Under the pieces are notes generated by a model. It saw nothing but the letters and a program-made list of their open reading frames with translations, did no database searches and was not told the origin of the DNA. From Patescibacteria group bacterium (GTDB taxonomy: Bacteria; Patescibacteriota; Minisyncoccia; Phycocordibacterales; UBA1550), in NCBI GenBank assembly GCA_038063615.1, contig JBBTUT010000002.1, forward strand, positions 48,746-112,745: a stretch of DNA of 64,000 nt. Direction: 5' to 3'. A program made the translations under genes and the position numbers. This document shows, in pieces, positions 838 through 58,674 of this stretch. Every line of letters starts with the position of its first letter. Position 1 is the stretch's first letter.

Positions 838-1593
838 CTATGATACCAGATTTTTTAATTCATCAATAGCTGAAACAATGTCCTCACTCTCAAGGATTGC
901 CGACCCTGACACAAGGCGTGTCGCGCCGGCATCGACGAGTCGTTCTGCGGTTTCAAAATTTACCGAGCCGTCGATGCTGATTGGCATTTCGGGACGCAAT
1001 ACGCGAATCGCGCGGATATGTTCAAGCACGCGCTCGTCAAACACTTCACCCTGAAAACCGATCTTTGCGATTCCCATACATTGCACGAAATCGATGCGGT
1101 CGAGATAGAGTTCAAGTGCGGACACAGGCGTTGTAGTATTGATGGCAAGCCCGAGTTCAATCAAGCCCGTCGGCACCGACGCGCGAATGGCCTCAAAACT
1201 TGCCCCGTTAGAGGTAGGTCGTATACGACCGTCAGCTCTAACGGGGTCAATACTCTCCACATGCACAATAATGCGTCGCACTCCCGCACTCACCCACTTT
1301 GGCACAGCGAGCTCGGGGCTCTCGATCATCAAGTCCACCTCAAAATCAATGTCTTCCCACGCAGGCATCCCCTCTTCCTCGGCAACGATCGCATCAAAGT
1401 GTGGCTCGCGCCCAAGCGGATACGGCCAAGTGCGCTCCGGTACAAACTTGCCATCCATAATATCAAGCTGAACAAACGGAACGACCCCGACAAAAAGCCC
1501 CACCTTTTCAACAAGGTCTTCGTAACTCTTTGGCATTATCGCGGGGATGATTTCTGTCATAAAATTGCTTCGCAAACATTTAACAATTGACAT
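838..1593 (-). CDS. rpe: Ribulose-phosphate 3-epimerase, divergent CPR-type. The likely true start is the ATG at 1560 (MTEIIPAIMP).
   Basis: Motifs IIPAIMP, DIMDGKFVP, ISIDGSVN and LVDAGATRLVSGSAIL match the Rpe TIM barrel (IAPSIL, DVMDGHFVP, EVDGGV, AGAD..VAGSAIF). Confidence 0.7.
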   Translation of the reverse strand: MSIVKCLRSNFMTEIIPAIMPKSYEDLVEKVGLFVGVVPFVQLDIMDGKFVPERTWPYPLGREPHFDAIVAEEEGMPAWEDIDFEVDLMIESPELAVPKWVSAGVRRIIVHVESIDPVRADGRIRPTSNGASFEAIRASVPTGLIELGLAINTTTPVSALELYLDRIDFVQCMGIAKIGFQGEVFDERVLEHIRAIRVLRPEMPISIDGSVNFETAERLVDAGATRLVSGSAILESEDIVSAIDELKNLVS

Positions 1594-1663
1594 GTAACAT
1601 TTAACGAATTCCGAATCTTGTACCCGTCAATTGTCCGCGAAGCGGTGTCAACTGTCAATTGTC
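1584..1663. repeat. Cluster of GTCAATTGTC / GACAATTGAC motifs in the rpiB-rpe intergenic region. Same motif family as 14139..14231.
   Basis: Sequence contains caattgacatgtaacat ... gtcaattgtcc ... gtcaactgtcaattgtct. Confidence 0.35.
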
Positions 1664-2095
1664 TAACTTTTGGATTCTCCGCGCATGCCTCTCGTCTCCA
1701 CTAAACGCCGTCTCGAGCCACACGCGCACGACCTCTTTCGCTTCGTCCTCGTCGATGAATCGCGCGCCGAGTGAGAGAATATTCGCATCGTTGTGCTCGC
1801 GGGAAAGTACGGCGATATCAAATGGTCCGCCATAGTACACTGCCGCGCGTGCGCCTTTGACGCGATTCGCGCACATCGCCTCACCTTGCCCCGACCCGCC
1901 GAGAATGATCCCGCGCGCAGTGCTGTCTTTTGCCACCGCCTCCGCAACAGGACGGATAAAATCCGGATAATCATCGAGCGCTTCAAACGAATGCGCGCCC
2001 ATATCCTCCACCTCGTGCCCAAGCACGCGAAGAAAAGGAAGGAGCATCTCCTTTATTTCAAACCCCGCATGGTCACAACCGATGTAAATTTTCAT
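1655..2095 (-). CDS. rpiB: Ribose-5-phosphate isomerase B (RpiB/LacAB family)
   Basis: MKIYIGCDHAGFEIKE...ILGGSGQGEAMCANRVKGARAA is a full-length RpiB signature at 146 aa. Confidence 0.85.
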   Translation of the reverse strand: MKIYIGCDHAGFEIKEMLLPFLRVLGHEVEDMGAHSFEALDDYPDFIRPVAEAVAKDSTARGIILGGSGQGEAMCANRVKGARAAVYYGGPFDIAVLSREHNDANILSLGARFIDEDEAKEVVRVWLETAFSGDERHARRIQKLDN

Positions 2096-5892: not shown

Positions 5893-5957
5893 ATGCGAAG
5901 TATATCATAAAATATCCCCACTCGCCCCAACCTCTCCTGTATCAAAAATTAATGCTT

Positions 5958-6001
5958 CAAAATCACCAAGTTTGACCTATAGGTCAAACTTGGTGATTTT
6001 G
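5958..6001. terminator. Perfect 20 bp stem with a 4 nt loop (caaaatcaccaagtttgacc tata ggtcaaacttggtgattttg) between hicA and the methyltransferase. Terminator-like or an operator palindrome.
   Basis: Perfect inverted repeat read directly in the sequence. There is no clean T-run after it on either strand. Confidence 0.4.
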
Positions 6002-6034
6002 AGGAAATTAATACGCCACACAAAAGTACTGTTA

Positions 6035-7648: not shown

Positions 7649-8530
7649 TTAATTCGCGTCCACAGCAATCCTTGCGAGCATCATCGCTCCCTCCTTCGAC
7701 CCTGCGACGGCGATGAATCGTTTATTGTGACAGAAGAGTGCATCAGGGACGCCGGAGATCTCGGCGAGCTCTCCGTCAAATTTGCCCGCCCATGCGATCG
7801 GCAGATCCTTTCTGTTTTTGAACGAATGCGCGTCGCTCCGCACCGCTTCGACTTTCCACATGTTGTCGTCGCCACGCGCGGGCTTCACTACGAACAACGG
7901 TTCCGGGCGCGCGCCGAGCGACTCGTACCACGGATAATGATGGTCGAGAACGATGATGCGCTTGTCGACGGCGCGCGCGTACGCTTCTTCAGCGCGGAGC
8001 TTCCCCTCTTCCTCACTGCGTGCGTGAATGATCTCGCGCGCAAGAATTTTCTTTGCGACCTCAAACGCTTCAAAAAAACCTTCTTCCTCGGTGCGCGCCT
8101 CATTCCACGCAGGGCGGAAAGCGCTCACGACATCGTGAAGAAAATACGGCACCACTTCGCCGTGTGCGGCGAATGTTTCAACGCCGTTGTCTCCCGCATC
8201 GACCGGCTGTGCTATCAGTCCATCGATCATTTTTGCCGCATATACAGAGCCCGTGATTTTCTCGCCGTAATGTTTCCATACGAGACCGAACGATGAGTAC
8301 GGAATATTGTTTTCCCTCACCCCCGCGCCACCTATTTGATGATGGTCAAATCGCCCGGCATCTGCATCATAGACTCCGCCCACATCGACGACAAAATCCC
8401 CCGTCGCCCAAACTTCGGGGTCGCGACTGCGCACGACCTCGACTGCTCCATCGTGCAAGAGCGCAAGTGTGGCGCAGGAAAAAACCTCGTCTGTGTGGAA
8501 GTTACCGCTGTGGGTTACGATCTTTTTCAT
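7649..8530 (-). CDS. MYG1/UPF0160-family metal-dependent hydrolase. The start is set at MKKIVTHSG (ATG at 8530); the ORF track start at 8563 runs into the repeat element.
   Basis: IVTHSGNFHTDEVFSCATL is the MYG1 hallmark. Confidence 0.8.
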   Translation of the reverse strand: MKKIVTHSGNFHTDEVFSCATLALLHDGAVEVVRSRDPEVWATGDFVVDVGGVYDADAGRFDHHQIGGAGVRENNIPYSSFGLVWKHYGEKITGSVYAAKMIDGLIAQPVDAGDNGVETFAAHGEVVPYFLHDVVSAFRPAWNEARTEEEGFFEAFEVAKKILAREIIHARSEEEGKLRAEEAYARAVDKRIIVLDHHYPWYESLGARPEPLFVVKPARGDDNMWKVEAVRSDAHSFKNRKDLPIAWAGKFDGELAEISGVPDALFCHNKRFIAVAGSKEGAMMLARIAVDAN

Positions 8531-8632
8531 CCCGTTAGAAGTTTTGTTGTTAAAATTAGTCATAGTGATTTATCCAGCCCTTTGATTATTTCCTTGTCTT
8601 CTGATTAAAGTACATGGAAACTTCTAACGGGA
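8531..8632. repeat. MITE-like cassette, copy 1. About 102 bp, bounded by inverted repeats cccgttagaagtt / aacttctaacggg, abutting the MYG1 start codon and overlapping the DedA stop.
   Basis: The left arm at 8531-8543 is immediately 3' of cat (the ATG on the minus strand). The right arm is at 8619-8632. The interior is AT-rich and carries a conserved aaggaaa-aataat core shared with copy 2. Confidence 0.5.
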
Positions 8633-9235
8633 TTCAAGTTTTTGATGTTCGAGCCGTTCATAATAAGAGGTAATGAGTTTCTGAAGCAAAATGAATCCTA
8701 CCACGAAAACCACGATGAGCAAAACGAAGTGCGACGCTTTTCTCGTAAAGACGACCGCGGCATGCCCAAACATATAGCCCGCAACCGCATAGATAGCCAC
8801 CCATGCGAACGAAGCAATCGCTTCCGCTTTCATAAAAAGCGGGAACGATATGCGGAGAACCCCCGATAGCACCAGCACCGCATGGTTTACGCCGTAGATA
8901 AACTTGGAAAGGAATATCGAGAGGAACGGCTTTTCACGAAATCGCGGTAAGAAATAGAAGACGCTTTTTTCTGCAAAACGAGCGATGTACGCGAGCTTTT
9001 CCATCCGCGCGATGAACATGCCGAAAACATACCAAAACGCATCACCCAAAAGCACACCGACGAATGCGACCCAGAGTACATCGCCGAAATCAAGAGCGCG
9101 CAAGCTCGCGAGCATTCCCGCGATGATCAAAAACGCCTCCCCCTCTATGAGCATCGCTACAAAAAGAGCGCCATACGCCAAAAAGCGATGGTCTTGGACA
9201 AGCGGGATAAAAAAGTCAATGGATTGCTCGAGCAT
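8624..9235 (-). CDS. DedA-family (VTT/SNARE-associated) membrane protein
   Basis: AMLIEGEAFLIIAGMLAS is the DedA motif, with multiple transmembrane segments. Confidence 0.6.
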   Translation of the reverse strand: MLEQSIDFFIPLVQDHRFLAYGALFVAMLIEGEAFLIIAGMLASLRALDFGDVLWVAFVGVLLGDAFWYVFGMFIARMEKLAYIARFAEKSVFYFLPRFREKPFLSIFLSKFIYGVNHAVLVLSGVLRISFPLFMKAEAIASFAWVAIYAVAGYMFGHAAVVFTRKASHFVLLIVVFVVGFILLQKLITSYYERLEHQKLESR

Positions 9236-9238
9236 AAT

Positions 9239-9580
9239 TTAATCTTGAGAGAGAAGTTTGTCCGCGATAAAGCCAGCTACTGAAACAACGAGCGACCCCA
9301 AAAGTGCCGGCACGAATCCAGAAACATGGACACCTGTTATGAATGAGCCGATCCCCCAAAAGAGGAGCGCGTTGATGACGAACGAAAAAAGTCCGAGCGT
9401 GAGGATATTGACCGGTAAAAGGATGATGTTGAGAATCGGACGCACTGTGAGCATCACGAGCCCCCAGAAAAACGCGATAATGAGCGCAGTTGTGAACGAA
9501 GCGATACTGATACCGTCGATAACGCTCGGCAGAGCGAGGAATGCGAGTGCGACGAGGATCCATTTTGCAAGAAGCCGCAT
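9239..9580 (-). CDS. Small 3-4 TM membrane protein, YvlD/DUF360 (phage-holin-4_2-like) family
   Basis: LIIAFFWGLVMLTVRPILNIILLPVNILTLGLFSFVINALLFWGI closely resembles B. subtilis YvlD-type proteins. Confidence 0.5.
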   Translation of the reverse strand: MRLLAKWILVALAFLALPSVIDGISIASFTTALIIAFFWGLVMLTVRPILNIILLPVNILTLGLFSFVINALLFWGIGSFITGVHVSGFVPALLGSLVVSVAGFIADKLLSQD

Positions 9581-9590
9581 AAAAAATAAA

Positions 9591-10601
9591 CTATGCTTGG
9601 GGAATAAGATTTTTTATCTCACCATTGCTGAACGCAGTGACATTTTCGACCGTCGTGTCGAGGATGCGCTTGATCGCCTCTTCGGTATTGAATGCATTGT
9701 GCGGTGCGATGATCGCGCGCGGATGCTCGATCAAATAGTGATTGGCGAGTGTGGTTTTCAAGCTTGCTTCGTTCGGATGCGCGCTGAAAAGCAATCTCGT
9801 CTCGTCTTCGACAAAGCCCTCTTCTTCGAGCACATCGAGGCCGACGCCGAGGAGGATCCCCTCGCGGAGGCCTTTCACGAGCGCTTCCGTTTCTACGAGC
9901 GCGCCGCGTGCGGTATTGATGAGCACGCTCCCCCTTTTCATTTTTGCGATATTGTCGACATTCAAAATATGATGAGTTTCCTTCATATAAGGAAGATGCA
10001 CACTCACGATGTCGGACTGAGCGAGGAGGTCGTCGAACGATACATACGAAAAGCCGAGCTCTTGCGCGAGGTTGTCTTTCGGGTGCGCATCGAATGCGAT
10101 GACCTTCATATCAAATCCTTTCACCATTTTGATCATATGCACACCGATGCGCCCCGTGCCGAGAATGCCGATTGTCTTCCCCTTGAGGTCGAAACCGCGA
10201 AGCCCCGCCTGCGAAAAGAGCCCCTCTTCTTGAACTTTTTTCACGCACTCATACAGTTTGCGTGAGACCATGAGGAGGAGCCCGACCGCAAACTCGGCGA
10301 CAGTGTTTTCTCCGTAACCGGGAACGAACGAAACTGTGATCCCGCGCGCCTGCGTTTCAGTACGGTCGATGTGGTCGTACCCCGTCGAGCGCGCCGCGAT
10401 GTGTTTCAGGTTCGGGAACCGGTCGAGCTCCGTTTTTCCAACGGGAGAATTCACGAACACCGAGAGCACTTCCGCTTGCTCATCGCGCATATCCGGATAG
10501 TCGGTGGTGATGCCTTTCAAAAAAGTTATCTCGTGCCCAACAAGGCGCTCCTTCACATACCCCGCCTCCCAATCTTCATTGTAAAAATATATGATTTTCA
10601 T
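9591..10601 (-). CDS. D-isomer-specific 2-hydroxyacid dehydrogenase (glycerate/hydroxypyruvate reductase or D-lactate dehydrogenase-like)
   Basis: GILGTGRIGVHMIKMVKGFDMKVIAFD NAD-binding motif, and the catalytic region VSVHLPYMKETHHILN ... NTARGALVE. Confidence 0.8.
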   Translation of the reverse strand: MKIIYFYNEDWEAGYVKERLVGHEITFLKGITTDYPDMRDEQAEVLSVFVNSPVGKTELDRFPNLKHIAARSTGYDHIDRTETQARGITVSFVPGYGENTVAEFAVGLLLMVSRKLYECVKKVQEEGLFSQAGLRGFDLKGKTIGILGTGRIGVHMIKMVKGFDMKVIAFDAHPKDNLAQELGFSYVSFDDLLAQSDIVSVHLPYMKETHHILNVDNIAKMKRGSVLINTARGALVETEALVKGLREGILLGVGLDVLEEEGFVEDETRLLFSAHPNEASLKTTLANHYLIEHPRAIIAPHNAFNTEEAIKRILDTTVENVTAFSNGEIKNLIPQA

Positions 10602-10702
10602 CCCGTTAGAAGTTTAATTGATAAAATTTACTACAAAAATGATTTAACCTATTATTTGTTTCCTTACCATCTTTAAAAACTCTCGGGAAACTTCTAATGG
10701 GA
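10602..10702. repeat. MITE-like cassette, copy 2. About 101 bp, arms cccgttagaagttt / aaacttctaatggg, abutting the start codon of the 2-hydroxyacid dehydrogenase.
   Basis: Same arm sequence as copy 1 with one mismatch, and a similar interior (tgattta-cc...atttgtttcctt...ggaaacttcta). Confidence 0.5.
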
Positions 10703-10742
10703 TTCATAAAATTAACTTACTATGTAGTACATTGTACCACAA

Positions 10743-12014
10743 TCACGCCGTCAGCGTAAAATACCAATCCGACACATTCGCGCCTGTGCGCCCCGTGTCG
10801 ATATGCGAGCCGACTTTTTCGAAAAATGCATACGACTGACTCTCGGCGATTGCCGTCTTTGGGTCCACACTTATTTCCTGCGCGCGGAGCAAAACCTCCG
10901 TATCGCCAAGAGCTCCCGCGAAAGGCGTATTGTCCCATCCGTCCGATGTTGCCGCGACGACAACGACCCCTTCGCGCATCGCTCCAAGCGCGCCGAGTAC
11001 GACCTCGAGGCACCGCCCGCCCTTGCCCTCTCCTTTCACCGTCACCGTAGTTTCCCCGCCAAACAAACGACATGTTTTCGGGGCGACCGCATCACGCGCG
11101 AGCATTTCACCCACTTCGCGCGCCTCACCCTGAAGTTCCGCATTCTCTATTTTCGTACCATACCCAAGCTTCTCTGCCGCGCTTTTCATCGCGTCAAGCG
11201 CCTTCATATTGGTCACAAATAATATGTTGCGGACTCGTTCAAAGTAGCGATCTTCCTTTGGGGTCTCCAGAAGATTGGGAATGTTCGTGATTCCATACTT
11301 TTCCAAGACAGCGCGCGCATCGTCGACGGTAGTCTGATCAAGGACCGTCGGTCCGGACGCCACCGTCCCCATATCGTTTCCCGGCACATCGGAAAAGATA
11401 AGCGCCGCCACAATCGCCGGATACGCGAGTTTTGCAAATTGTCCGCCCTGTATTTGAGATGTGTGCTTCCGCACCGTGTTCAATTCGACGATGGTCGCTC
11501 CTTTGTCCATGAGCGTTTTTGTCACCGTCGCGAGATTGTCACAAGAAATATCGTACGGCAAACACAAGAGCGACGACGCACCGCCCGATATCACCGTAAT
11601 CAACAGGTCGCGCTCGGTGAGCCCTTCGAGAAGTTTTGCGATCGATTTCGTCGCTTCAACATTCGCCTCTGAGGGGAACGGGTGCGTGCCGATGTGCGAG
11701 CGCAGTTTTTGCAGTGGCGCCCCGCGCACATCGAGGATGATGCCGTCCGTGAGCCACCCGTGAAGCTTCTCTTCAAACACTTCTCCCGCATCAAACGCGC
11801 ATTTCCCGATCCCGACAAAAAAGATGCGCTCGTACGCATTGAGCGCGAAAAATTGCTCGCCGATCCTCAAAAATTTCCCATCGACCTCTACTTGCGACCG
11901 CACCACCTCTTTGGTCAAGACCGCTTGATACCCCGCCTCAAGGATCTCAAGCGCATCGCGCCGAAGCCCCGTCGTCGCAAGCTCATCGGCATTTTTGATG
12001 ACAGAGAAAGACAT
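10743..12014 (-). CDS. Glycerate 2-kinase (MOFRL family)
   Basis: GGETTVTVKGEGKGGRCLEVVLGA and VISGGASSLL, with typical MOFRL length and architecture. Confidence 0.75.
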   Translation of the reverse strand: MSFSVIKNADELATTGLRRDALEILEAGYQAVLTKEVVRSQVEVDGKFLRIGEQFFALNAYERIFFVGIGKCAFDAGEVFEEKLHGWLTDGIILDVRGAPLQKLRSHIGTHPFPSEANVEATKSIAKLLEGLTERDLLITVISGGASSLLCLPYDISCDNLATVTKTLMDKGATIVELNTVRKHTSQIQGGQFAKLAYPAIVAALIFSDVPGNDMGTVASGPTVLDQTTVDDARAVLEKYGITNIPNLLETPKEDRYFERVRNILFVTNMKALDAMKSAAEKLGYGTKIENAELQGEAREVGEMLARDAVAPKTCRLFGGETTVTVKGEGKGGRCLEVVLGALGAMREGVVVVAATSDGWDNTPFAGALGDTEVLLRAQEISVDPKTAIAESQSYAFFEKVGSHIDTGRTGANVSDWYFTLTA

Positions 12015-13429: not shown

Positions 13430-14135
13430 TATGAGAGCAAAAATAGAAACAAAAAAATATGTAATTGCCTTTGCCACCACCGCCACGGTGTTTTTTGGCG
13501 CGCTCCTCGTAAGCAACCGTTTTGAGGCACAAAGACTTGCTGAAATAAAAAATGTCGAGAGCAAAATTTCACTTGACATACTCTCCTCTGAAACACAGTT
13601 CGCACTTCTCAAGGAGTCCTCTTGCAAGGCAATCGATCACTCGACCACATTCTCAGAAGAGCTCAGTTCTCTTGCCGCGAAACTTTCATATATGGAAGAT
13701 AATCTGGGCGACAGCAATGCCGAGGTGATCAACCTCAAAAAATACTACTCGCTCCTCCAGATTAAAGACTATCTCTTGGTCGCGCAGGTCAAAGAAAAAT
13801 GCGGGGTCAAGCCCATCACCATCATTTACTTTTATTCGAATAAAGGCGACTGTACTGACTGCAAAAAAGAGGGCTATGTTTTAACAAAGCTGCGTGAAGA
13901 GTTCCCCGAGCTCCGTATCTATGCATTCGATTACAATCTCGACCTCTCGGCGGTCAAAACGATGAAGTCTATCCAAGGCGTCAGAAACACCCTCCCCGCC
14001 CTCGTCATCTGGGAAGAAAATTATTACGGTTTCAAGAGCACCGAGGATATCGAAAAGATCATTCCCCAGCTCAAAAAGCTCCGCGCCACCCGCGAAAAAG
14101 CCGCGACCGCGACGAGCACGAAGGGAAACAATTGA
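13410..14135 (+). CDS. Membrane-anchored thioredoxin-like (CxxC) protein. Alternative start MRAKIETKK at 13431.
   Basis: N-terminal TM helix, then ITIIYFYSNKGDCTDCKK ... LPALVIWEE, which resembles a thioredoxin-fold CxxC motif and cis-Pro region. Confidence 0.3.
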   Translation: MEPSGDNMRAKIETKKYVIAFATTATVFFGALLVSNRFEAQRLAEIKNVESKISLDILSSETQFALLKESSCKAIDHSTTFSEELSSLAAKLSYMEDNLGDSNAEVINLKKYYSLLQIKDYLLVAQVKEKCGVKPITIIYFYSNKGDCTDCKKEGYVLTKLREEFPELRIYAFDYNLDLSAVKTMKSIQGVRNTLPALVIWEENYYGFKSTEDIEKIIPQLKKLRATREKAATATSTKGNN

Positions 14136-14138
14136 CAT

Positions 14139-14231
14139 GTGACAATTGACCGTAGACACAAAAGCGCGCCCTATGGGCGCGCTTTTTAAGTTTGCATTGG
14201 TCAAATGTCAATTGTCACATGTCAATTGTCA
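14139..14231. repeat. 22 nt inverted repeats (caattgacatgtgacaattgacc / ggtcaattgtcacatgtcaattg) bracketing the bidirectional terminator. The right side also carries a tandem ATGTCAATTGTCA pair.
   Basis: Read directly from the sequence. The motif is shared with 1584-1663. Confidence 0.45.
14163..14188. terminator. Bidirectional rho-independent terminator (agcgcgccc tat gggcgcgct + TTTTT, with an A-run upstream) between convergent genes
   Basis: GC stem of 9 bp, 3 nt loop, and T/A runs on both sides. Confidence 0.75.
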
Positions 14232-16325: not shown

Positions 16326-16369
16326 CACCATTATCTATTCCAAGTCATGACTTGGAATAGATAATGGTG
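16326..16369. repeat. Perfect 44 nt palindrome, family P1, 22 nt upstream of the PaaX-like gene 1 start
   Basis: caccattatctattccaagtca|tgacttggaatagataatggtg is its own reverse complement. Confidence 0.8.
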
Positions 16370-17009: not shown

Positions 17010-17047
17010 TGTTATCTATTTCAAGCCATGACTTGAAATAGATAACA
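17010..17047. repeat. 38 nt palindrome, family P1, one central mismatch, 63 nt downstream of the PaaX-like gene 1 stop
   Basis: tgttatctatttcaagcca|tgacttgaaatagataaca. Confidence 0.75.
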
Positions 17048-20662: not shown

Positions 20663-21114
20663 TGCCATTTTTTTATGTGCTATTCGCTGATGCAGTGATG
20701 CATCCTCGAACATGTATGCAAATTATTTTATCTACAACAATTACTCGACCCGATCGTGTATGAGTAAATCTCATCATCAATCGCGTACAATTATTGGATC
20801 ATGTCTTGTGTGAAAATTCTCTCACACGGTGTACTGTGATCTACTACTATTATCGCGCATACAAAAATCAAACACAATACTTTTTAAAAATAAAACTGTG
20901 GATAACTTTTTTTCTTTGTCGTGAAGAAAATTTTTTTGAAACAAAAAAAATTTTACATCTGCTCCACGAAATTTTAATTTCATAAATTTAATTTCGCATT
21001 CCATTTTCCAATTTCAAATTTAAACTTCCCTTTCACTGCACACGCATCCGGACCTATGGGCCCGAATGCGTGTGCAGTGAAAAAATTTCAAAACATACCA
21101 GACAAAAATTAAAT

Positions 21115-21154
21115 CTTCCGCCTTCTATGTCCTATAGGACATAGAAGGCGGAAG
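21115..21154. repeat. Perfect 18 bp stem with a 4 nt loop (cttccgccttctatgtcc tata ggacatagaaggcggaag). An imperfect 14 bp hairpin lies just upstream at 21034-21079.
   Basis: Read from the sequence. Confidence 0.7.
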
Positions 21155-21172
21155 AACTTGGAAATTAAAAAA

Positions 21173-47297: not shown

Positions 47298-47343
47298 CCC
47301 CGTAACCCCTATCTCCACAACTATCTCCCCAATCTTATCTTTT

Positions 47344-47389
47344 TCTCTTCAGCCTGTTTGATACTATAGTATCAAACAGGCTGAAGAGA
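47344..47389. repeat. Perfect 46 nt palindrome, family P2, 44 nt downstream of the PaaX-like gene 2 stop
   Basis: tctcttcagcctgtttgatacta|tagtatcaaacaggctgaagaga. Confidence 0.8.
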
Positions 47390-47432
47390 AATTCAACGAG
47401 ACCTCCTCGAAACGAGTGCTCCTGCGGATAAT

Positions 47433-48017: not shown

Positions 48018-48026
48018 ATTAAATCA

Positions 48027-48068
48027 TTTACAGCCTGTTTGATACTATAGTATCAAACAGGCTGTAAA
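48027..48068. repeat. Perfect 42 nt palindrome, family P2, 10 nt upstream of the PaaX-like gene 2 start
   Basis: tttacagcctgtttgatacta|tagtatcaaacaggctgtaaa. The 34 nt core is identical to the 47344..47389 copy. Confidence 0.8.
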
Positions 48069-48178
48069 TGTAAACAGGGATGAACAGGGAATTAAGGAAC
48101 TTACAAAAATCTACTGATTCGTCTATTTCGCTGACAAACTCACAAAAGTGACCCGTACAATTAAGGTCGAGCAACTTC

Positions 48179-53303: not shown

Positions 53304-53347
53304 GCCCATTATCTATTTCAAGTCATGACTTGAAATAGATAATGGGC
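53304..53347. repeat. Perfect 44 nt palindrome, family P1, third copy, far from the PaaX-like genes
   Basis: gcccattatctatttcaagtca|tgacttgaaatagataatgggc. Confidence 0.8.
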
Positions 53348-54078: not shown

Positions 54079-54759
54079 TTATTGAGAAAGTATTTCCTCC
54101 GCACGCTTAATGTCATACGGATACGCGATCGGGATCCAGAGTTCGCTCTCCACCACCTGCATCGGATGGTCGTGTATGTATCGTTCGATCATCTCCGTCA
54201 AATAGTACTCGCCATTTTTTGTATGTTTGGCTTCATAGTCAAAAATTTTAGGAGTGAGCACATATACGCCCGTTGCCACAAGATTTGATTTTGGATGCTC
54301 GGGCTTCTCTTCGATGTTTTGAATTGTGCCATCCTCGCGCATGACCACCACACCAAAAGCGCGCGGATCATCAACAAAAGAGACAAGGAGTGCCGAATCA
54401 TTCTTCATGCATTGAGCAATACTTTCTTTCCCATGAATGTCATCAGCGTACATAAGCAAAAACTTTTCTTCATTCTCGAGATGCAGGCGACAAAGCTTGA
54501 GTGCGTGCGCGGTGCCAAGCGGTTCATCCTGTTCGACATAGGTCACCCGCTTCCCCAAAAATGTATCACCCAAAAAATCGTGCATCATTTCGCTCTTGTA
54601 CCCCACGACGATCACCACTTCGTTGATGACCTCGGGCAACGCTTCCCAGATATGCTGGATGAGCGGTTTGCCGAGGACCTCGACGAGCGGTTTCGGCCGC
54701 TCAAGCGTAAGCGGATGGAGCCGTCTCCCCTCTCCTGCCGCGATGATAACTGCTTTCAT
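54079..54759 (-). CDS. Sugar-phosphate nucleotidyltransferase (NTP_transferase, e.g. glucose-1-phosphate thymidylyl/uridylyltransferase-like)
   Basis: MKAVIIAAGEGRRLHPLT..PKPLV is the G-x-G-T-R nucleotidyltransferase N-terminus. Confidence 0.8.
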   Translation of the reverse strand: MKAVIIAAGEGRRLHPLTLERPKPLVEVLGKPLIQHIWEALPEVINEVVIVVGYKSEMMHDFLGDTFLGKRVTYVEQDEPLGTAHALKLCRLHLENEEKFLLMYADDIHGKESIAQCMKNDSALLVSFVDDPRAFGVVVMREDGTIQNIEEKPEHPKSNLVATGVYVLTPKIFDYEAKHTKNGEYYLTEMIERYIHDHPMQVVESELWIPIAYPYDIKRAEEILSQ

Positions 54760-54925
54760 CCCGTTAGAGACAGGAGATTTGTCCCGTTAGAAGTCGCGAG
54801 GGTTCGCAGCGTGTAGTCACTTCTAACGGGATAAAATCTCCGTGCCTAATTACATTATACTGCCAATAATATTTATTCAACATATGTCTATATTACCAAA
54901 AAATAACATAAGGGTCTCTAACGGG
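54760..54925. repeat. Composite MITE-like cassette. An outer copy (arms cccgttagagac / gtctctaacggg) carries a nested 48 bp mini-copy (cccgttagaagt-gac...gtc-acttctaacggg at 54783..54830). It abuts the start codon of the NTP-transferase gene.
   Basis: All four arms were read from the sequence. The nested copy has extended flanking inverted repeats ggagattt / aaatctcc. Confidence 0.5.
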
Positions 54926-55001
54926 ATTCATACTGATTGCAATCATAGCAAACCCGCACGAACAAAAAAAGGGGCCGGTAGCAACCGACCCCTCGAATAA
55001 C

Positions 55002-55670: not shown

Positions 55671-55686
55671 TATCTGCTTTTCAAAG

Positions 55687-55760
55687 TGCGCGATCCAGGA
55701 CTCGAACCTGGGACCTCGTCATTATCAGTGACGCGCTCTAACCACCTGAGCTAATCGCGC
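55687..55760 (-). tRNA. tRNA-Ile (anticodon GAU), 74 nt, no encoded CCA
   Basis: GCGCGATTAGCTCAGGTGGTTAGAGCGCGTCACTGATAATGACGAGGTCCCAGGTTCGAGTCCTGGATCGCGCA. A 7 bp acceptor stem, GTGG D-loop, anticodon loop CTGATAA and TTCGAGT T-loop. Confidence 0.85.
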
Positions 55761-55785
55761 ACTTTGAAAACCAATTTTAAAAACC

Positions 55786-56410: not shown

Positions 56411-57026
56411 GTTTGAAAAATTGCATGTATGTAATATCTAAAAATTATTTGTTGAGTATTCTTTCTTTTGTTCCGTTCTTCGCCTTGCTTTGCCGTCCGT
56501 TTTAAAAAAACAGGCGATTAAGCAAGGTCTTGCGTACCGGTAACCCTTCCGGTAAGGGAGCCCCTTTTTGAGATGGGAGGGCCTTCATCTTAATTCCTTG
56601 CGGAAAAAACCGACCAATTCAGCGTATCGCAACCACGAGGGCGTACGATACAACATTATATTTTGAATTGATTCACGACCAGCTTCCGCTAGCCGTGCCT
56701 TGTTACGACTTAGTCCTTGTTACCAAGCTTACCTTAGGTCCACGCGAGGTGGAACTTCGGGTACTCTCGGCTCCCCTGACTTGACGGGCGGTGAGTACAA
56801 GACTTGAGAACGTATTCACCGCAGTATAGCTGACCTGCGATTACTAGCGATTCCAACTTCATGAGGTCGAGTTTCAGCCCTCAATCCGAACTGGGGCCAC
56901 CTTTATTAGGATTAGCTCAGGGTTACCCCGTCGCGACCCGTTGTAGTGGCCATTGTATCAAGTGTGCAGCCCAGGGTATCAAAGGGACATGCTGACCTGG
57001 CGTCATCCTCTCCTTCCTCCCCCGCC

Positions 57027-57153
57027 TTTATTCGCGAAGCGAACAAAGGCAAGTCAAAAGTTAAAAGTCACAAGTCGAAAGTAGATGCATTTTGCATTCA
57101 CTTTTTACTTTACACTTTCTACTTTCCACTTGCCTTTGCGCTTCGTGCGCAAA
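57027..57153 (-). other. 16S insertion 1: an AT-rich extended hairpin of about 116 extra nt replacing the small loop before the GGAGGAAGG region (E. coli position about 1165)
   Basis: Sense strand reads TTTGCGCACGAAGCGCAAAGGCAAGTGGAAAGTAGAAAGTGTAAAGT...ACTTTCGACTTGTGACTTTTAACTTTTGACTTGCCTTTGTTCGCTTCGCGAATAAA, full of (G/C)AAAGT repeats. No ORF. Confidence 0.6.
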
Positions 57154-57388
57154 GGCGGGGGCAGTCTCGTCTGACACATATAACAGACAACGAGGGTTGC
57201 GTTCGTTGACCCACTTAAGGGGACAGTTCAAACCACGAACTGACGACGGCCATGCATCACCTGTCCATAAGTCCTTGCGGAGTTACCGAGTTTCCTCGGT
57301 CTTTCTTATGGATTTCTAACCCTGGTGAGGTTCTTCGTTTACCATCGAATTAAGCCACCTGATCCACCGCTTGTGCAAGTCCCCGTCT

Positions 57389-57420
<32 letters not shown>

Positions 57421-57918
57421 TCCCAGGCGGATCTCTTAACGCGTTAGCTTCGCCTCTCAGAGGGTCGATACTCCGAAAAGCTAGAGATCATCGTTTAGGG
57501 CGTAGACTACTGGGGTATCTAATCCCATTCGCTACCTACGCTTTCGTGTTTCAGTGTCAGAAATGTGCCAGTTTGCTGCCTTCGCATTTGGTGTTCCCCA
57601 TGATATCAACGGATTTCACCCCTACACCATGAGTTCCGCAAACCTCTCACACCCTCTAGTCGTGCCGTTTCAGCCGCAATTCTCCGGTTAAGCCGGAGGC
57701 TTTGACGAATGACTAACACGACCACCTACACACCCTTTACGCCCAATAATTCCGGATAACGCTTGGGGTACTCGTATTACCGCTGCTGCTGGCACGAGTT
57801 TAGCAACCCCTTATTCATGAGGTACTATCAAAAATTTCTCCCTCATAAAAGATCTTTACATCCCGAAAGACTTCATCGATCACGCGGCGTCGCTCCATCA
57901 GACTTTCGTCCATTGTGG

Positions 57919-57949
<31 letters not shown>

Positions 57950-58189
57950 ATGGTCCGTGTCTCAGTACCATCGGTGGGGGTCAGGCTCTCACCTCCCCTA
58001 AGCGTCATAGCCTTGGTAAGCCATTACCTTACCAACTAGCTGATACTCAATAAGCCAAGCCCCAAGCGATAAATCTTTACTCCGAAGAGACTATCAAGTA
58101 TTAGCCCGCCTTTCGGCGGGTTATTCCTGACTTGGGGGTTTGTACCTATTTATTACTACCTCGTTCGCAACTCCGAGCATCACGCTACG

Positions 58190-58292
58190 CGCGATACACG
58201 AGTCAAAAGTCGAAAGTCCTTAAAGTCCAAAGTAAATACGAATTGTATTCACTTTTGACTTTCGACTTTATAAACTTTTTGACTTGTGCATC
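58190..58292 (-). other. 16S insertion 2: an AT-rich hairpin expansion of helix 6 (V1 region), about 95 extra nt, with the same AAAGT/GACTTT repeat flavour
   Basis: Stem base CCGAGCATCAC ... GTGATGCTCGG. The interior reads CAAGTCAAAAAGTTTATAAAGTCGAAAGTCAAAAGTGAATACAATTCGTATTTACTTTGGACTTTAAGGACTTTCGACTTTTGACTCG. Confidence 0.6.
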
Positions 58293-58674
58293 ACACCCAA
58301 TGTGATGCTCGGCGTTCTACTTGCATGCCTTATCCACGCCGCCAGCGTTCATCCTGAGCTAGGATCAAACTCTCTTAAAAAGAGCATTTGAATTAACTCT
58401 CAAGAACGGAACAAAAGAAAAAATACTCTTTTGTATTCTTGTTATTTTACTCACAAGATCTGCCCAACTGCTAAAATCGAACAGATCCTTTTTTGGACTT
58501 GCAATCCAAACTTTAGATGTTTACATATATGCAATTGTCAAAGGTCGTTTTGCTTTCGGGCAAATACCCTGAAAGCAAAAGCGCTCATTCCTAAGCGCTT
58601 GAGCAGTATATACTTGTGTCGAAAAGAAGTCAAGCGCGAATTTTAGGCATATTTTATAGGCAAAATAAAGGTTT

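What the first reader, a model, noticed from the sequence alone, without database searches (positions are those of the whole stretch)
8531..10702. Family of about 100 bp cassettes bounded by CCCGTTAGAAGTT inverted repeats, inserted flush against start codons
Two copies (8531..8632 and 10602..10702) share 13-14 bp terminal inverted repeats and related AT-rich interiors with a conserved aaggaaa(c/t)aa(a/t)taat block that looks like a -35/-10 promoter (for example TTTAAA, 17 nt spacer, TAATAG). In both, the arm abuts the ATG exactly (cttctaacgggATGAAA; both proteins start MK).

This is what a promoter-donating MITE would look like, or a shared cis-regulatory module whose arms form a 5' hairpin. 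The first copy's arms also overlap the stop of the upstream gene.
Basis: seen in the sequence. Interest (0 to 1): 0.7.

Follow-up and report, generated by a model that had tools for sequence, protein, structure and literature searches.

The report
Mobile hairpin elements at start codons
The two ~100-bp cassettes are copies of a small mobile DNA element with CCCGTTAGA ends that inserts at TGAA and rebuilds the gene's start codon behind itself. Relatives occur in many uncultivated bacterial phyla, some of them in frame inside genes.

Summary
Two cassettes on the gene (minus) strand, at 8530-8632 and 10601-10702, carry 16-nt inverted arms and abut the ATG exactly. The window holds two further copies, at 54759-54926 and at 1204-1245.

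They are copies of a non-autonomous, MITE-like transposable element.
- The terminal inverted repeats are 12-13 bp: (Y)CCCGTTAGARRN.
- The target-site duplication is 4 bp (TNNA, here TGAA).
- Close relatives of this groundwater Patescibacteria genome have clean empty sites for all three start-codon copies, each with a single (A/T)TGAAA.

The abutment follows from the insertion geometry. The element's terminal purine plus the duplicated TG rebuild an RTG start codon. In copy 1 this turned TTG into ATG.

The native extended -10 promoters lie upstream of copies 2 and 3. That of copy 2 is retained in its empty allele, and each empty copy-3 allele has its own extended -10. So promoter donation is not needed.

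They come from Patescibacteria, Omnitrophota, Planctomycetota, Desulfobacterota and others, and 21 viral-contig loci also carry them.
- About 27% abut start codons.
- About 16% lie in frame inside genes, read as P-V-R...S-N-G.

No transposase was found and no published description turned up. My verdict is a new family of a known kind.

The parts
8530..8632 (-). Copy 1 of the element (103 bp): T-CCCGTTAGAAGTTT ... AAACTTCTAACGGG-A in gene orientation. It lies between the DedA-like gene and the MYG1-like gene.
   Evidence: 16-nt arms, 100% complementary. Empty sites in L128, L131 and L132; present with 5 interior substitutions in L126.
8526..8529 (-). Target-site duplication TGAA, downstream copy. 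Together with the element's terminal A (8530) it forms the ATG of the MYG1-like gene (8530..8528).
   Evidence: empty allele ...AAAAACTTGAAAAAGATAG... against filled ...AAAAACTTGAA-T[element]A-TGAAAAAGATCG...
8633..8636 (-). Target-site duplication TGAA, upstream copy. It is the relic of the original TTGAAA start of the MYG1-like gene.
8624..8626 (-). New stop codon (TAG) of the DedA-like gene, supplied by the 5' arm (CCCGT-TAG).
   Evidence: ORF 8624..9235. In the empty allele L128 the frame instead runs on ...EHQKLEKDSNAQR*, overlapping the next gene.
10601..10702 (-). Copy 2 of the element (102 bp). One arm carries a G>A change (CCCATTAGAAG). It lies immediately before the ATG of the 2-hydroxyacid dehydrogenase gene.
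   Evidence: The empty site in L126 (97% identical protein, same aquifer) reads ...GTTATAATCATGAAAATAATA....
10597..10600 (-). Target-site duplication TGAA, downstream copy, which is part of the working ATGAAA start.
10703..10706 (-). Target-site duplication TGAA, upstream copy, which is part of the vestigial ATGAAT.
10606..10707 (-). Vestigial-start uORF. The old ATG (10707..10705) reads through the whole element (33 codons, MNPIRSF...QLNF). It stops at the TAA of the 3' arm, leaving 4 nt (CGGG) between the stop codon and the working ATG.
   Evidence: (uORF 33 codons; first base of the stop codon 7 nt upstream of the new start) and the sequence.
10731..10760 (-). Native promoter-like site TTTACG-18-TACAAT with a TG extension, upstream of copy 2.
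   Evidence: The same TGGTACAAT is present in the empty allele L126, and TGnTACAAT lies 8-29 nt before the ATG in L130-L132.
54759..54926 (-). Copy 3, a composite form (168 bp). It has outer arms CCCGTTAGAGAC/GTCTCTAACGGG, an AT-rich stretch and an inner hairpin with the same foot. It abuts the ATG of a nucleotidyltransferase gene and is flanked by TGAA (54755-54758 and 54927-54930).
   Evidence: The same architecture occurs before unrelated genes in L093 and L106. It is present in L157 (92% identical protein) and absent in L158 and L159.
54783..54830 (-). Inner 48-nt hairpin of copy 3 (CCCGTTAGAAGT...ACTTCTAACGGG).
   Evidence: -25.7 kcal/mol, z = -7.2.
54942..54950 (-). Extended -10-like TGCTATGAT, 10 nt upstream of the vestigial ATGAAT of copy 3. 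It follows the intrinsic terminator of the upstream gene at 54994..54969.
   Evidence: Read from the sequence. Terminator. L157 has TGCTATTAT, and the empty alleles have TGATATAGT or TGGTATAGT.
1204..1245 (-). Short family member (42 nt) in frame inside the ribulose-phosphate 3-epimerase gene (838..1593). It is read as P-V-R-ADGRIRPT-S-N-G.
   Evidence: Orthologs of 85-78% identity lack it, while an 88% and a 69% ortholog carry it; the 42-nt DNA was read for the 69% ortholog (L154) and is identical.

Best explanation
**What it is.** The cassettes are copies of a non-autonomous, MITE-like transposable element.

**What is shown.**
- The element is bounded by terminal inverted repeats of 12-13 bp, (Y)CCCGTTAGARRN. 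The outer 9-10 bp are the same in many bacterial phyla.
- It duplicates 4 bp of target, TNNA, within a preferred site R|TNNA|Y.
- In this genome three copies landed on (A/T)|TGAA|A at the first codons of genes.
- The element ends in a purine that pairs with its first base. The downstream copy of the duplication starts with TG. Together they recreate an RTG start codon directly behind the element, so the gene stays intact.
- In copy 1 the original TTG became ATG. The upstream gene acquired a new stop codon from the arm.
- In C...G-ended relatives the old ATG stays upstream and the working start becomes GTG.
- The same ends are free of stop codons in two of three frames (CCC GTT AGA = PVR; TCT AAC GGG = SNG). 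Short copies whose length is a multiple of 3 persist in frame inside genes.

**What is inferred.**
- Movement is catalysed in trans by a transposase that makes 4-bp staggered target cuts. That enzyme is not identified.
- Transcription still starts at the native promoters upstream, so the element is transcribed as a leader or intercistronic hairpin.
- The downstream gene is translated by coupling or reinitiation. Ribosomes from the vestigial start or from the upstream gene melt the hairpin and terminate in or next to the arm.
- This is tolerated because the lineage hardly uses Shine-Dalgarno sequences.
For: **Empty sites for all three start-codon copies.**
- Copy 2: L126 (protein 97% identical, same aquifer) has a single ATGAAA where the window has ATGAA-T[100 nt]A-TGAAA.
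- Copy 1: L128 (90%) has the clean empty site CTTGAAAAAG against CTTGAA-T[...]A-TGAAAAAG. L131 and L132 (82%) also lack the cassette, with diverged junctions.
- Copy 3: L158 and L159 (80% and 79%) have a single ATGAAA, and L157 (92%) has the element.

**Family-wide signatures that the search pattern did not demand.**
- The flanking 6-mers are direct repeats in one register only.
- The middle 4 nt are identical in 71 of 145 elements, against 10.2 +/- 2.8 in shuffles.
- The base next to each arm is complementary in 93%.
- Perfect arm length peaks sharply at 12 bp (64 of 146, with 102 of 146 at 12 bp or more).
- Pairs such as ATGAGT|..|ATGAGT and TTTTGC|..|GTTTGT keep the direct repeat where the inverted repeat fails. 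This favours a 4-bp duplication.

**Start-codon regeneration.**
- 39 of 145 and 45 in the extended set abut ATG or GTG of an ORF of at least 60 codons.
- ATGAAC|..|GTGAAG-type pairs occur in L030, L039 and L070.

**In-gene copies.** Twenty-one of 132 interrupt long ORFs. Seventeen of these have lengths that are multiples of 3. They read through in frame 0 or 1 and never in frame 2.

**Multi-copy, near-identical elements within a contig** occur in L035, L010 and L029.

**Native promoters and translation.**
- The native promoter of copy 2 is retained upstream in both filled and empty alleles; copy 3 and its empty-site relatives each have an extended -10 before the old ATG.
- Only 5 of 53 genes in the window have a Shine-Dalgarno-like motif.
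- The uORF frame is stop-free in 14 of 33 start-abutting elements, against 5 and 7 of 33 in the other two frames.

**No other explanation from libraries.** There is no Rfam match even at E <= 1.
Against: - No autonomous copy and no transposase were found. Arm pairs 0.25-8 kb apart in about 150 loci enclose ordinary genes. No protein family recurs next to the elements. tblastn with the ISEcp1 transposase finds nothing.
- Copies of only 30-51 bp still have duplications (for example L084, L119, L006, L072). That is hard to reconcile with a transposase synapsing two ends of duplex DNA. They may be deletion derivatives, or the substrate may be a hairpin or cruciform.
- The in-gene copy at 1204 has no recognisable duplication. 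Its 42 nt plus GCAAGT are identical in a 69%-identical ortholog. That points to recombination or repeated site-specific acquisition rather than simple random transposition.
- The family survey is ascertainment-biased.
- About 500 chance matches are expected in 596 Gb (my arithmetic), so a minority of the hits may be chance.
- All the hits are metagenome bins, so some phylum labels could be binning errors.
- The translation-coupling step is inference only.
Confidence: 0.82

Rival explanations
1. Promoter-donating MITE. The element is mobile, and its AT-rich interior supplies the promoter that drives the gene it abuts.
For: - The interiors are AT-rich.
- Copy 3 contains TTGAAT-15-TATAAT on the gene strand (sequence).
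- Correia elements set a precedent for promoter donation (review PMC10969869).
- Copy 3 follows an intrinsic terminator.
Against: - Native extended -10 promoters lie just upstream of the vestigial ATG for copies 2 and 3. That of copy 2 is retained in its empty allele, and the copy-3 empty alleles each carry their own.
- No gene-strand promoter-like site is scored inside copies 1 or 2. The only one in copy 2 faces the other way.
- Copy 1 lies inside an operon whose genes overlap in the empty allele.
- The TATAAT of copy 3 is TTTAAT in the 92% relative L157.
- Interiors are not conserved across the family.
Confidence: 0.12
2. A conserved cis-regulatory RNA module, such as a leader hairpin, an RNase III site or a riboswitch-like element, that is vertically inherited upstream of particular genes.
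For: - The arms form stable hairpins: -29.1 kcal/mol (z = -5.1) for copy 1 and -22.7 kcal/mol (z = -2.6) for copy 2.
- The first two bases of the start codon are paired in the stem.
Against: - Presence/absence differs among 97-80% identical relatives.
- The downstream genes are unrelated, and some copies lie inside coding sequences.
- Target-site duplications are present.
- Arm length is fixed at about 12 bp rather than being selected for stability.
- There is no Rfam match at E <= 1.
- The interior of copy 1 diverges about as fast as the flanking genes: 92.2% against 92.7-95.6%.
Confidence: 0.04
3. An invertible promoter (inverton): a DNA segment flipped between inverted repeats by a site-specific recombinase.
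For: - It is a ~100-bp segment bounded by inverted repeats directly upstream of genes.
- The same repeats recur at several loci, as with master invertases.
Against: - All 7 independent assemblies that carry copy 1 or copy 2 have them in the same orientation.
- Family members as short as 30-50 bp could not be inverted.
- Flanking direct repeats and empty sites are not expected for invertons.
- Some copies lie in frame inside genes.
Confidence: 0.02
4. An intervening sequence removed after transcription or skipped during translation. This could be intron-like excision at the flanking repeats, or ribosome hopping between matching take-off and landing codons.
For: - The flanking direct repeats could serve as ambiguous junctions.
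- The hairpin has a conserved foot.
- Short members often have a Y-shaped interior with two GC-rich hairpins.
- In one case a tRNA sits between the arms (L103).
Against: - If the elements were removed or skipped, frame would not matter. Yet 17 of 21 in-gene copies are multiples of 3 and stop-free. They occupy only the two frames in which the arms have no stop codon.
- Positions 1 and 6 of the flanking 6-mers match far less often than positions 2-5. That fits a DNA duplication, not codon matching.
Confidence: 0.03
5. The same mobile element, but moved as a single-strand hairpin or cruciform by a structure-specific enzyme (REPIN/RAYT-like, IS200/IS605-like or integron-integrase-like) rather than by a two-ended DDE transposase.
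For: - Minimal copies of 30-50 bp with duplications exist.
- The foot contains GTTAGA/TCTAAC, the same hexamers as the R boxes of integron attC sites (from my own knowledge of attC).
- The stems covary beyond the conserved 9 nt.
Against: - HUH (IS200/IS605, RAYT) and tyrosine-recombinase systems do not create target-site duplications (established knowledge). A 4-bp duplication is seen here.
- The polarity is opposite to attC: 5'-GTTAGA...TCTAAC-3' here against 5'-RYYYAAC...GTTRRRY-3' in attC.
- The arm length is fixed at 12-13 bp, as for a protein-binding terminal repeat.
Confidence: 0.12

Closest known systems
Bacterial MITEs in general, such as the Correia elements of Neisseria (review PMC10969869)
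   Same: - Small size (30-170 bp) with no coding capacity.
- Terminal inverted repeats and a target-site duplication.
- Multiple copies per genome.
- Presence/absence between strains.
- Frequent location directly upstream of genes.
- Transcribed as hairpins.
   Different: - The ends and the duplication differ. Correia has 26-bp repeats and a TA duplication (my own knowledge). Here the repeats are 12-13 bp and the duplication is TNNA.
- The same terminal 9-10 bp occur across several phyla, not within one genus.
- Promoter donation is documented for Correia and is not supported here.
- Insertion rebuilds the start codon.
Rickettsia palindromic elements (RPEs; Ogata et al. 2000, as summarised in PMC10969869)
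   Same: Palindromic repeats inserted in frame into unrelated housekeeping genes and apparently tolerated as extra peptide segments. Examples here are Rpe in the window and RsmH-, HolB-, PheT-, ProB- and Sua5-like genes (assigned by eye) in other genomes.
   Different: - RPEs are ~100-150 bp and restricted to Rickettsia.
- RPEs encode family-specific conserved peptides. Here only the end tripeptides (PVR/SNG or PLE/LTG) are fixed.
- In-gene copies here are 42-81 bp.
- Sequence relatedness to RPEs was not tested.
piggyBac / IS1380 superfamily transposons
   Same: - A 4-bp target duplication with T...A. piggyBac uses TTAA and IS1380 uses 4 bp (my own knowledge).
- Short terminal repeats beginning CC(C) and containing TAGA. 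piggyBac is CCCTAGAAAGATA (my own knowledge). ISEcp1 is CCTAGATTCTACG (read). The element here is CCCGTTAGAARN.
   Different: - No transposase of this or any other family was found near or between the arms.
- There is an extra Y/R base between the duplication and CCC.
- The resemblance is a lead, not a demonstrated relationship.
REP / REPIN elements mobilised by RAYT transposases
   Same: Short hairpin-forming palindromes dispersed in many copies, non-autonomous, and probably moved in trans.
   Different: - REPINs lack target-site duplications, are intergenic, and carry a conserved GTAG-type head (my own knowledge).
- Duplications are clear here, and copies sit in genes and on start codons.
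Integron attC sites
   Same: - Hairpins of variable length and sequence with a conserved foot containing TCTAAC/GTTAGA.
- Found in many environmental lineages.
   Different: - The polarity of the two boxes relative to the loop is reversed.
- There are no cassette ORFs between successive sites and no integrase nearby.
- A 4-bp duplication is present.

Membership tests
MITE (miniature inverted-repeat transposable element) | Terminal inverted repeats | tested here: met
   16-nt arms in copies 1 and 2. Family-wide perfect arm length peaks at 12 bp, and the adjacent base is complementary in 93%.
MITE (miniature inverted-repeat transposable element) | Target-site duplication flanking the element | tested here: met
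   TGAA flanks all three start-codon copies. The middle 4 nt of the flanks are identical in 71 of 145 elements against 10.2 +/- 2.8 in shuffles. Filled-versus-empty comparison confirms this.
MITE (miniature inverted-repeat transposable element) | Small size and no transposase gene inside | tested here: met
   Lengths are 30-168 bp. The interiors hold no ORF beyond the vestigial uORFs.
MITE (miniature inverted-repeat transposable element) | Presence/absence polymorphism at orthologous sites | tested here: met
   - Copy 2 is absent in L126.
- Copy 1 is absent in L128, L131 and L132.
- Copy 3 is absent in L158 and L159.
- The in-gene copy is absent in P0123-P0129.
MITE (miniature inverted-repeat transposable element) | Multiple copies per genome | tested here: met
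   Four copies in this 64-kb window. Two or three near-identical copies per 8-kb locus in L010, L029, L035 and L067. Whole-genome copy number could not be counted.
MITE (miniature inverted-repeat transposable element) | A related autonomous insertion sequence with the same terminal repeats | tested here: inconclusive
   None was found in about 1.1 Mb of fetched loci. The tools cannot scan collections for arm pairs more than 600 bp apart.
Correia / CREE elements | 26-bp terminal repeats, a TA duplication and outward promoters | tested here: not met
   The arms are 12-13 bp of different sequence and the duplication is TNNA. No gene-strand promoter is scored in copies 1 or 2.
Rickettsia palindromic elements | In-frame insertion in protein-coding genes | tested here: met
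   This is met for the family and for the copy at 1204-1245. It does not apply to the two cassettes of the finding.
Rickettsia palindromic elements | Sequence homology to RPE families, with a conserved encoded peptide | not tested
   No RPE sequences were compared. Only the PVR/SNG end tripeptides are conserved here.
piggyBac / IS1380 superfamily | DDE transposase of that superfamily associated with the ends | tested here: inconclusive
   tblastn with the ISEcp1 transposase against all loci and the window found nothing. The query is a distant one, and only DNA near MITE copies was searched.
piggyBac / IS1380 superfamily | 4-bp duplication and CC-initial terminal repeats | tested here: met
   TNNA duplication and (Y)CCCG... 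ends. The ISEcp1 end CCTAGATTCTACG was read.
REPIN / RAYT | No target-site duplication; an associated RAYT gene | tested here: not met
   A duplication is present. No recurring neighbouring gene was found.
Integron attC | 5'-RYYYAAC ... GTTRRRY-3' order of the R'' and R' boxes, arranged in cassette arrays next to intI | tested here: not met
   The order here is 5'-GTTAGA ... TCTAAC-3' on both strands. The elements are dispersed, not in arrays with ORF cassettes.
Invertible promoter (inverton) | Both orientations present in a population | tested here: not met
   Seven assemblies all show the same orientation.
Known structured RNA families (Rfam 15) | A covariance-model match | tested here: not met
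   Only 16S rRNA and a tRNA are found in the window at gathering thresholds. Nothing is found at E <= 1 in 8400-10850.

The most novel reading that the evidence does not exclude
A pan-phylum superfamily of minimal hairpin transposons whose ends are adapted to very gene-dense genomes.
- The 9-10 conserved terminal bases are open in two reading frames. In the third frame they carry a stop codon (TAG or TAA).
- The terminal purine plus a TG-initial duplication rebuilds a start codon.
- As a result, insertions at start codons, at gene junctions and in protein loops are near-neutral and keep translational coupling.

The elements would be moved in trans by a transposase not yet linked to them, possibly related to IS1380/piggyBac. 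They may be carried between Patescibacteria, Omnitrophota, Planctomycetota and Desulfobacterota by phages. Copies of only 30 bp may mean that the substrate is a hairpin or cruciform rather than two separate duplex ends.
Probability: 0.3. Interest if true: 0.7.

Novelty: new member of a known kind. Interest (0 to 1): 0.55.

Why it matters
- **A gap in what is known about these lineages.** Patescibacteria and other ultra-small or uncultivated lineages are thought to carry few mobile elements. The full-text searches found no paper mentioning MITEs together with them.
- **Horizontal spread.** One family with the same ends occurs in several phyla and on viral contigs. This implies horizontal spread of a mobilising activity through subsurface communities. 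It also gives a sequence tag (CCCGTTAGA...TCTAACGGG plus a TNNA duplication) for tracing that spread.
- **Gene annotation.** The elements displace true starts, create vestigial ATG uORFs, change TTG or ATG to ATG or GTG, truncate upstream genes, and add 14-27-residue loops to housekeeping enzymes.
- **How streamlined genomes tolerate selfish DNA.** The start-codon-regenerating geometry is a clear example.
- **A natural test of translation.** It bears on reinitiation and coupling in organisms that largely lack Shine-Dalgarno sequences.

Tried and rejected
- **Known RNA families.** Rfam gave nothing at gathering thresholds or at E <= 1.
- **Integron attC.** The hexamers are the same but the polarity is reversed, so I rejected it on reading the sequence.
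- **Tyrosine-recombinase core site** (arm - 6 bp - arm, as in tandem copies in L054 and L035). I rejected it because variable targets with identical duplications need staggered cuts and fill-in, not homology-dependent exchange.
- **A 2-bp duplication with 14-bp repeats.** The 4-bp model is favoured instead.
- **RNA splicing or ribosome bypassing.** Rejected because of the frame constraint on in-gene copies.
- **Inverton.** No flipped orientation was seen.
- **tRNA-derived element.** Only L103 has a tRNA between the arms. The follow-up script over the other loci crashed before finishing.
- **Autonomous partner.** Long-range arm pairs enclose ordinary genes, including the 2.7 kb between the two inverted copies in L029, which encodes a secreted protein. 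All-against-all clustering of 734 neighbouring ORFs gave only housekeeping families. tblastn with ISEcp1 found nothing.
- **Literature.** The arm sequences returned only primers and shRNAs. Searches on MITE plus CPR and on MITE plus start codon found no description.
- **AlphaFold model of the Rpe protein with the insert.** Quality was only moderate (pLDDT 67). The insert is a low-confidence segment between strand 88-92 and helix 114-120. That fits a surface loop but is weak evidence.

Full report
**1. Observation**

The window is bacterial. It has a 1720-nt 16S rRNA gene with insertions and a tRNA-Ile. Its proteins match contigs from the Hainich H41 aquifer metagenomes, and their homologs are labelled Patescibacteria, Paceibacteria or Yonathbacteria.

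The genes around the finding are on the minus strand:
- a MOFRL-type glycerate kinase (12014->10743);
- a 2-hydroxyacid dehydrogenase (10601->9591);
- a holin-4-like membrane protein (9580->9239);
- a DedA/VTT protein (9235->8624);
- a MYG1-like protein (8530->7649);
- Obg (7611->6637).

The two cassettes are real. Their 16-nt arms ATCCCGTTAGAAGTTT/AAACTTCTAACGGGAT are 100% and 94% complementary and lie 73 and 72 nt apart. Both abut ATGAAA. The motif is far above chance in the window.

Two further copies exist.
- A composite lies at 54759-54926, abutting the ATG of a nucleotidyltransferase gene.
- A 42-nt hairpin lies at 1204-1245 inside a ribulose-phosphate 3-epimerase gene, read as ...HVESID-PVRADGRIRPTSNG-ASFEAIR....

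**2. A large family with signatures of transposition**

I scanned one genome per species (596 Gb) for CCCGTTAGA-N30-90-TCTAACGGG.

By my arithmetic about 500 chance matches are expected in that much DNA, so the count alone proves nothing. But the hits share features that the pattern did not ask for:
- The arms continue as perfect complements to exactly 12 bp in 64 of 146 elements, and to 12 bp or more in 102 of 146. Chance would give about 1.6%. Positions 10-12 are variable but matched, giving a consensus CCCGTTAGARRN.
- The base outside each arm is Y on the left and R on the right, and the two are complementary in 93%.
- The six bases on either side are direct repeats in one register only. 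Per-position identity is .48 .76 .62 .63 .76 .44, against about .25 in other registers.
- The middle four bases are identical in 71 of 145 elements, against 10.2 +/- 2.8 when flanks are shuffled among elements.

Pairs such as ATGAGT|..|ATGAGT, ATGCGT|..|ATGCGT and TTTTGC|..|GTTTGT keep the direct repeat where an inverted-repeat reading fails. The best model is therefore an element Y-CCCG...CGGG-R with a 4-bp duplication TNNA in a preferred target R|TNNA|Y.

The host labels are strikingly non-random:
- many classes of Patescibacteria;
- about a dozen Omnitrophota;
- about twenty Planctomycetota (Pirellulales, Phycisphaerae, Brocadia);
- Desulfobacterota;
- Cloacimonadota;
- a few others.

All are metagenome bins. 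Twenty-one viral-contig loci also carry the elements, and one 30-kb contig has several.

**3. Empty sites prove insertion and explain the abutment**

I fetched orthologous loci through protein look-ups.

- **Copy 2.** L126 comes from the same aquifer and its dehydrogenase is 97% identical. It reads ...TGGTACAATACGCTATGTAGCAAGTTATAATCATGAAAATAATA.... The window reads ...TGGTACAATGTACTACATAGTAAGTTAATTTTATGAA-T[100 nt]A-TGAAAATCATA....
- **Copy 1.** L128 (90%) reads ...CATCAAAAACTTGAAAAAGATAGTAAC.... The window and L126 read ...CATCAAAAACTTGAA-T[101 nt]A-TGAAAAAGATCGTAAC.... L131 and L132 (82%) also lack the cassette, with more diverged junctions.
- **Copy 3.** L158 and L159 (80% and 79%) have a single ...ATGAAAGCTGT.... 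The window and L157 (92%) have ATGAA-T[166 nt]A-TGAAAGCAGT.

Each insertion therefore duplicated TGAA. The element's last base (A) plus the duplicated TG form the ATG that abuts the arm.

In copy 1 the ancestral start was TTG, overlapping the end of the DedA-like gene. The insertion made it ATG and gave the DedA-like gene a new stop codon, the TAG in CCCGTTAG.

In C...G-ended relatives the old ATG stays upstream and the working start becomes GTG (ATGAAC|..|GTGAAG in L030, L039 and L070).

Family-wide, 39 of 145 elements, or 45 in the extended set, abut an ATG or GTG that opens an ORF of at least 60 codons.

**4. Copies inside genes are translated, not removed**

In 21 of 132 elements, deleting the element in silico joins long open frames. 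Seventeen of these have lengths that are multiples of 3.

They read through in the frame giving PVR...SNG (16 cases) or the frame giving PLE...LTG (7 cases). None uses the third frame, where the arms contain TAG and TAA.

By eye, the host genes look like HolB, PheT, Sua5/YrdC, RsmH and ProB. This frame constraint argues against splicing or ribosome bypassing.

For the window's own Rpe gene:
- Orthologs of 85-78% identity lack the 15-residue insert.
- An 88% ortholog and a 69% ortholog have it. In the 69% ortholog (L154) the 42-nt DNA plus GCAAGT is identical, although the flanks are about 70% identical.
- This indicates recent, repeated acquisition or recombination.
- A moderate AlphaFold model places the insert in a low-confidence segment between a strand and a helix.

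**5. What the cassettes do to expression (inferred)**

This genome hardly uses Shine-Dalgarno sequences: only 5 of 53 genes have such a motif. It typically has a TGnTAnnAT extended -10 element 8-25 nt before the ATG.

For copies 2 and 3 that promoter lies upstream of the vestigial ATGAAT. The promoter of copy 2 is retained in its empty allele L126. The empty copy-3 alleles each have their own extended -10 directly before ATGAAA (copy 3 read from the sequence). The element is therefore transcribed as part of the leader and can fold into a hairpin that pairs the first two bases of the start codon.

In copy 2 the vestigial ATG opens a 33-codon uORF that runs through the whole element. It stops at the TAA of the 3' arm, with 4 nt between the stop codon and the real ATG.

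Among 33 start-abutting elements that retain an old start codon, the interior is stop-free in the uORF frame in 14. The other two frames are stop-free in 5 and 7. Twelve uORFs end within 7 nt of the new start or overlap it, and two fuse in frame.

In copy 1, ribosomes finishing the DedA-like gene terminate inside the 5' arm.

I therefore propose that translation of the downstream genes is maintained by hairpin melting and termination-reinitiation coupling. This is suggestive statistics plus inference, not demonstration.

The promoter-donor idea is not needed for any of the three copies. No gene-strand promoter is scored inside copies 1 or 2. The TATAAT inside copy 3 is TTTAAT in L157.

**6. 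Mechanism of movement**

What is shown is the terminal repeats, a 4-bp duplication with a symmetric target preference, and multi-copy near-identical sets within contigs (L010, L029, L035). There is also a composite subfamily that has moved as a unit to unrelated genes (window, L093 and L106).

These are the hallmarks of cut-and-paste or copy-in transposition by an enzyme acting in trans. I could not find that enzyme:
- Long-range arm pairs do not enclose a transposase.
- No protein family recurs nearby.
- There is no ISEcp1-like ORF.

One lead deserves testing. The ends CC(C)..TAGA and a 4-bp T..A duplication resemble IS1380/piggyBac. ISEcp1 is CCTAGATTCTACG, and piggyBac is CCCTAGAAAGATA with TTAA (my own knowledge).

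An unresolved point is that copies of only 30-51 bp still carry duplications. Either they are deletion derivatives, or the substrate is a hairpin or cruciform.

**7. Comparison and novelty**

The family meets every testable criterion of a MITE except a known autonomous partner.
- It behaves like Rickettsia RPEs when inside genes.
- It resembles Correia elements in sitting upstream of genes, but it is not a member of either family.
- It fails the tests for attC sites, REPINs, invertons and known RNA families.

The full-text searches found no description of it, and no paper that mentions MITEs together with the candidate phyla radiation.

I rate it a new family of a known kind. Its unusual features are:
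- conservation of the ends across phyla;
- start-codon regeneration;
- ends that are compatible with coding;
- a minimal size of 30 bp.

These features make it moderately interesting.

Noticed in passing
window 5957-6002, 16326-16369, 17010-17047, 21114-21155, 47342-47391, 48025-48070, 53304-53347; also L159 about 510-560: There are perfect 38-50-bp palindromes with no spacer in intergenic DNA, falling into at least two sequence families...CAGCCTGTTTGATACTA|TAGTATCAAACAGGCTG... and ...ATTATCTATTTCAAGTCA|TGACTTGAAATAGATAAT.... The centre GATACTATAGTATC reads as an extended -10 (TGATACTAT) on both strands. A palindrome with the same centre occurs in a 79% relative. They may be bidirectional promoters or another repeat family.
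   Followed up: no
window 1-64000 (gene starts): Only 5 of 53 long ORFs have a Shine-Dalgarno-like motif. Many have TGnTAnnAT 8-25 nt before the ATG, which suggests short-leader or leaderless mRNAs as the norm in this lineage.
   Followed up: partly
window 56661-58380 (minus strand): The 16S rRNA gene is 1720 nt against a 1533-position model. It carries inserted hairpin regions at 57019-57161 and 58169-58316 whose arms do not have the CCCGTTAGA ends.
   Followed up: no
L103 4972-5125: In a Saccharibacteria bin the arms CCCCGTTAGA / TCTAACGGGG directly flank an intact tRNA-Thr(CGT). A partial copy of a tRNA 3' portion and a second 3' arm follow. This is the only such case confirmed; the scan of the other loci stopped early.
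   Followed up: partly
L145 4734-4776 and 9059-9116, L147 2709-2758, L150 3740-3798 (viral contigs): In these elements a perfect Shine-Dalgarno sequence (AAGGAGGT) lies just inside the 3' arm, 10 nt before the abutting ATG. In Shine-Dalgarno-using hosts or phages the element therefore does carry the ribosome-binding site.
   Followed up: no
L126 6607-6951, L128 3102-3470; L126 4509-4634, L128 4506-4675: Genes for PF05635 (23S rRNA intervening-sequence protein) appear at different intergenic positions in otherwise syntenic relatives. Other, unrelated hairpin-rich insertions of 120-170 nt sit between the dehydrogenase and holin-like genes. Intergenic DNA in this lineage turns over quickly.
   Followed up: no
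window 1573-1672 and 14128-14229: A second inverted-repeat family is built on ACAATTGACATGT / TGTCAATTGT motifs. It is unrelated to the CCCGTTAGA arms.
   Followed up: no
window 55675-55773: 20-nt complementary flanks extend the acceptor stem of tRNA-Ile (55686-55760) by about 11 bp. This looks like a processing stem downstream of the 16S gene.
   Followed up: no
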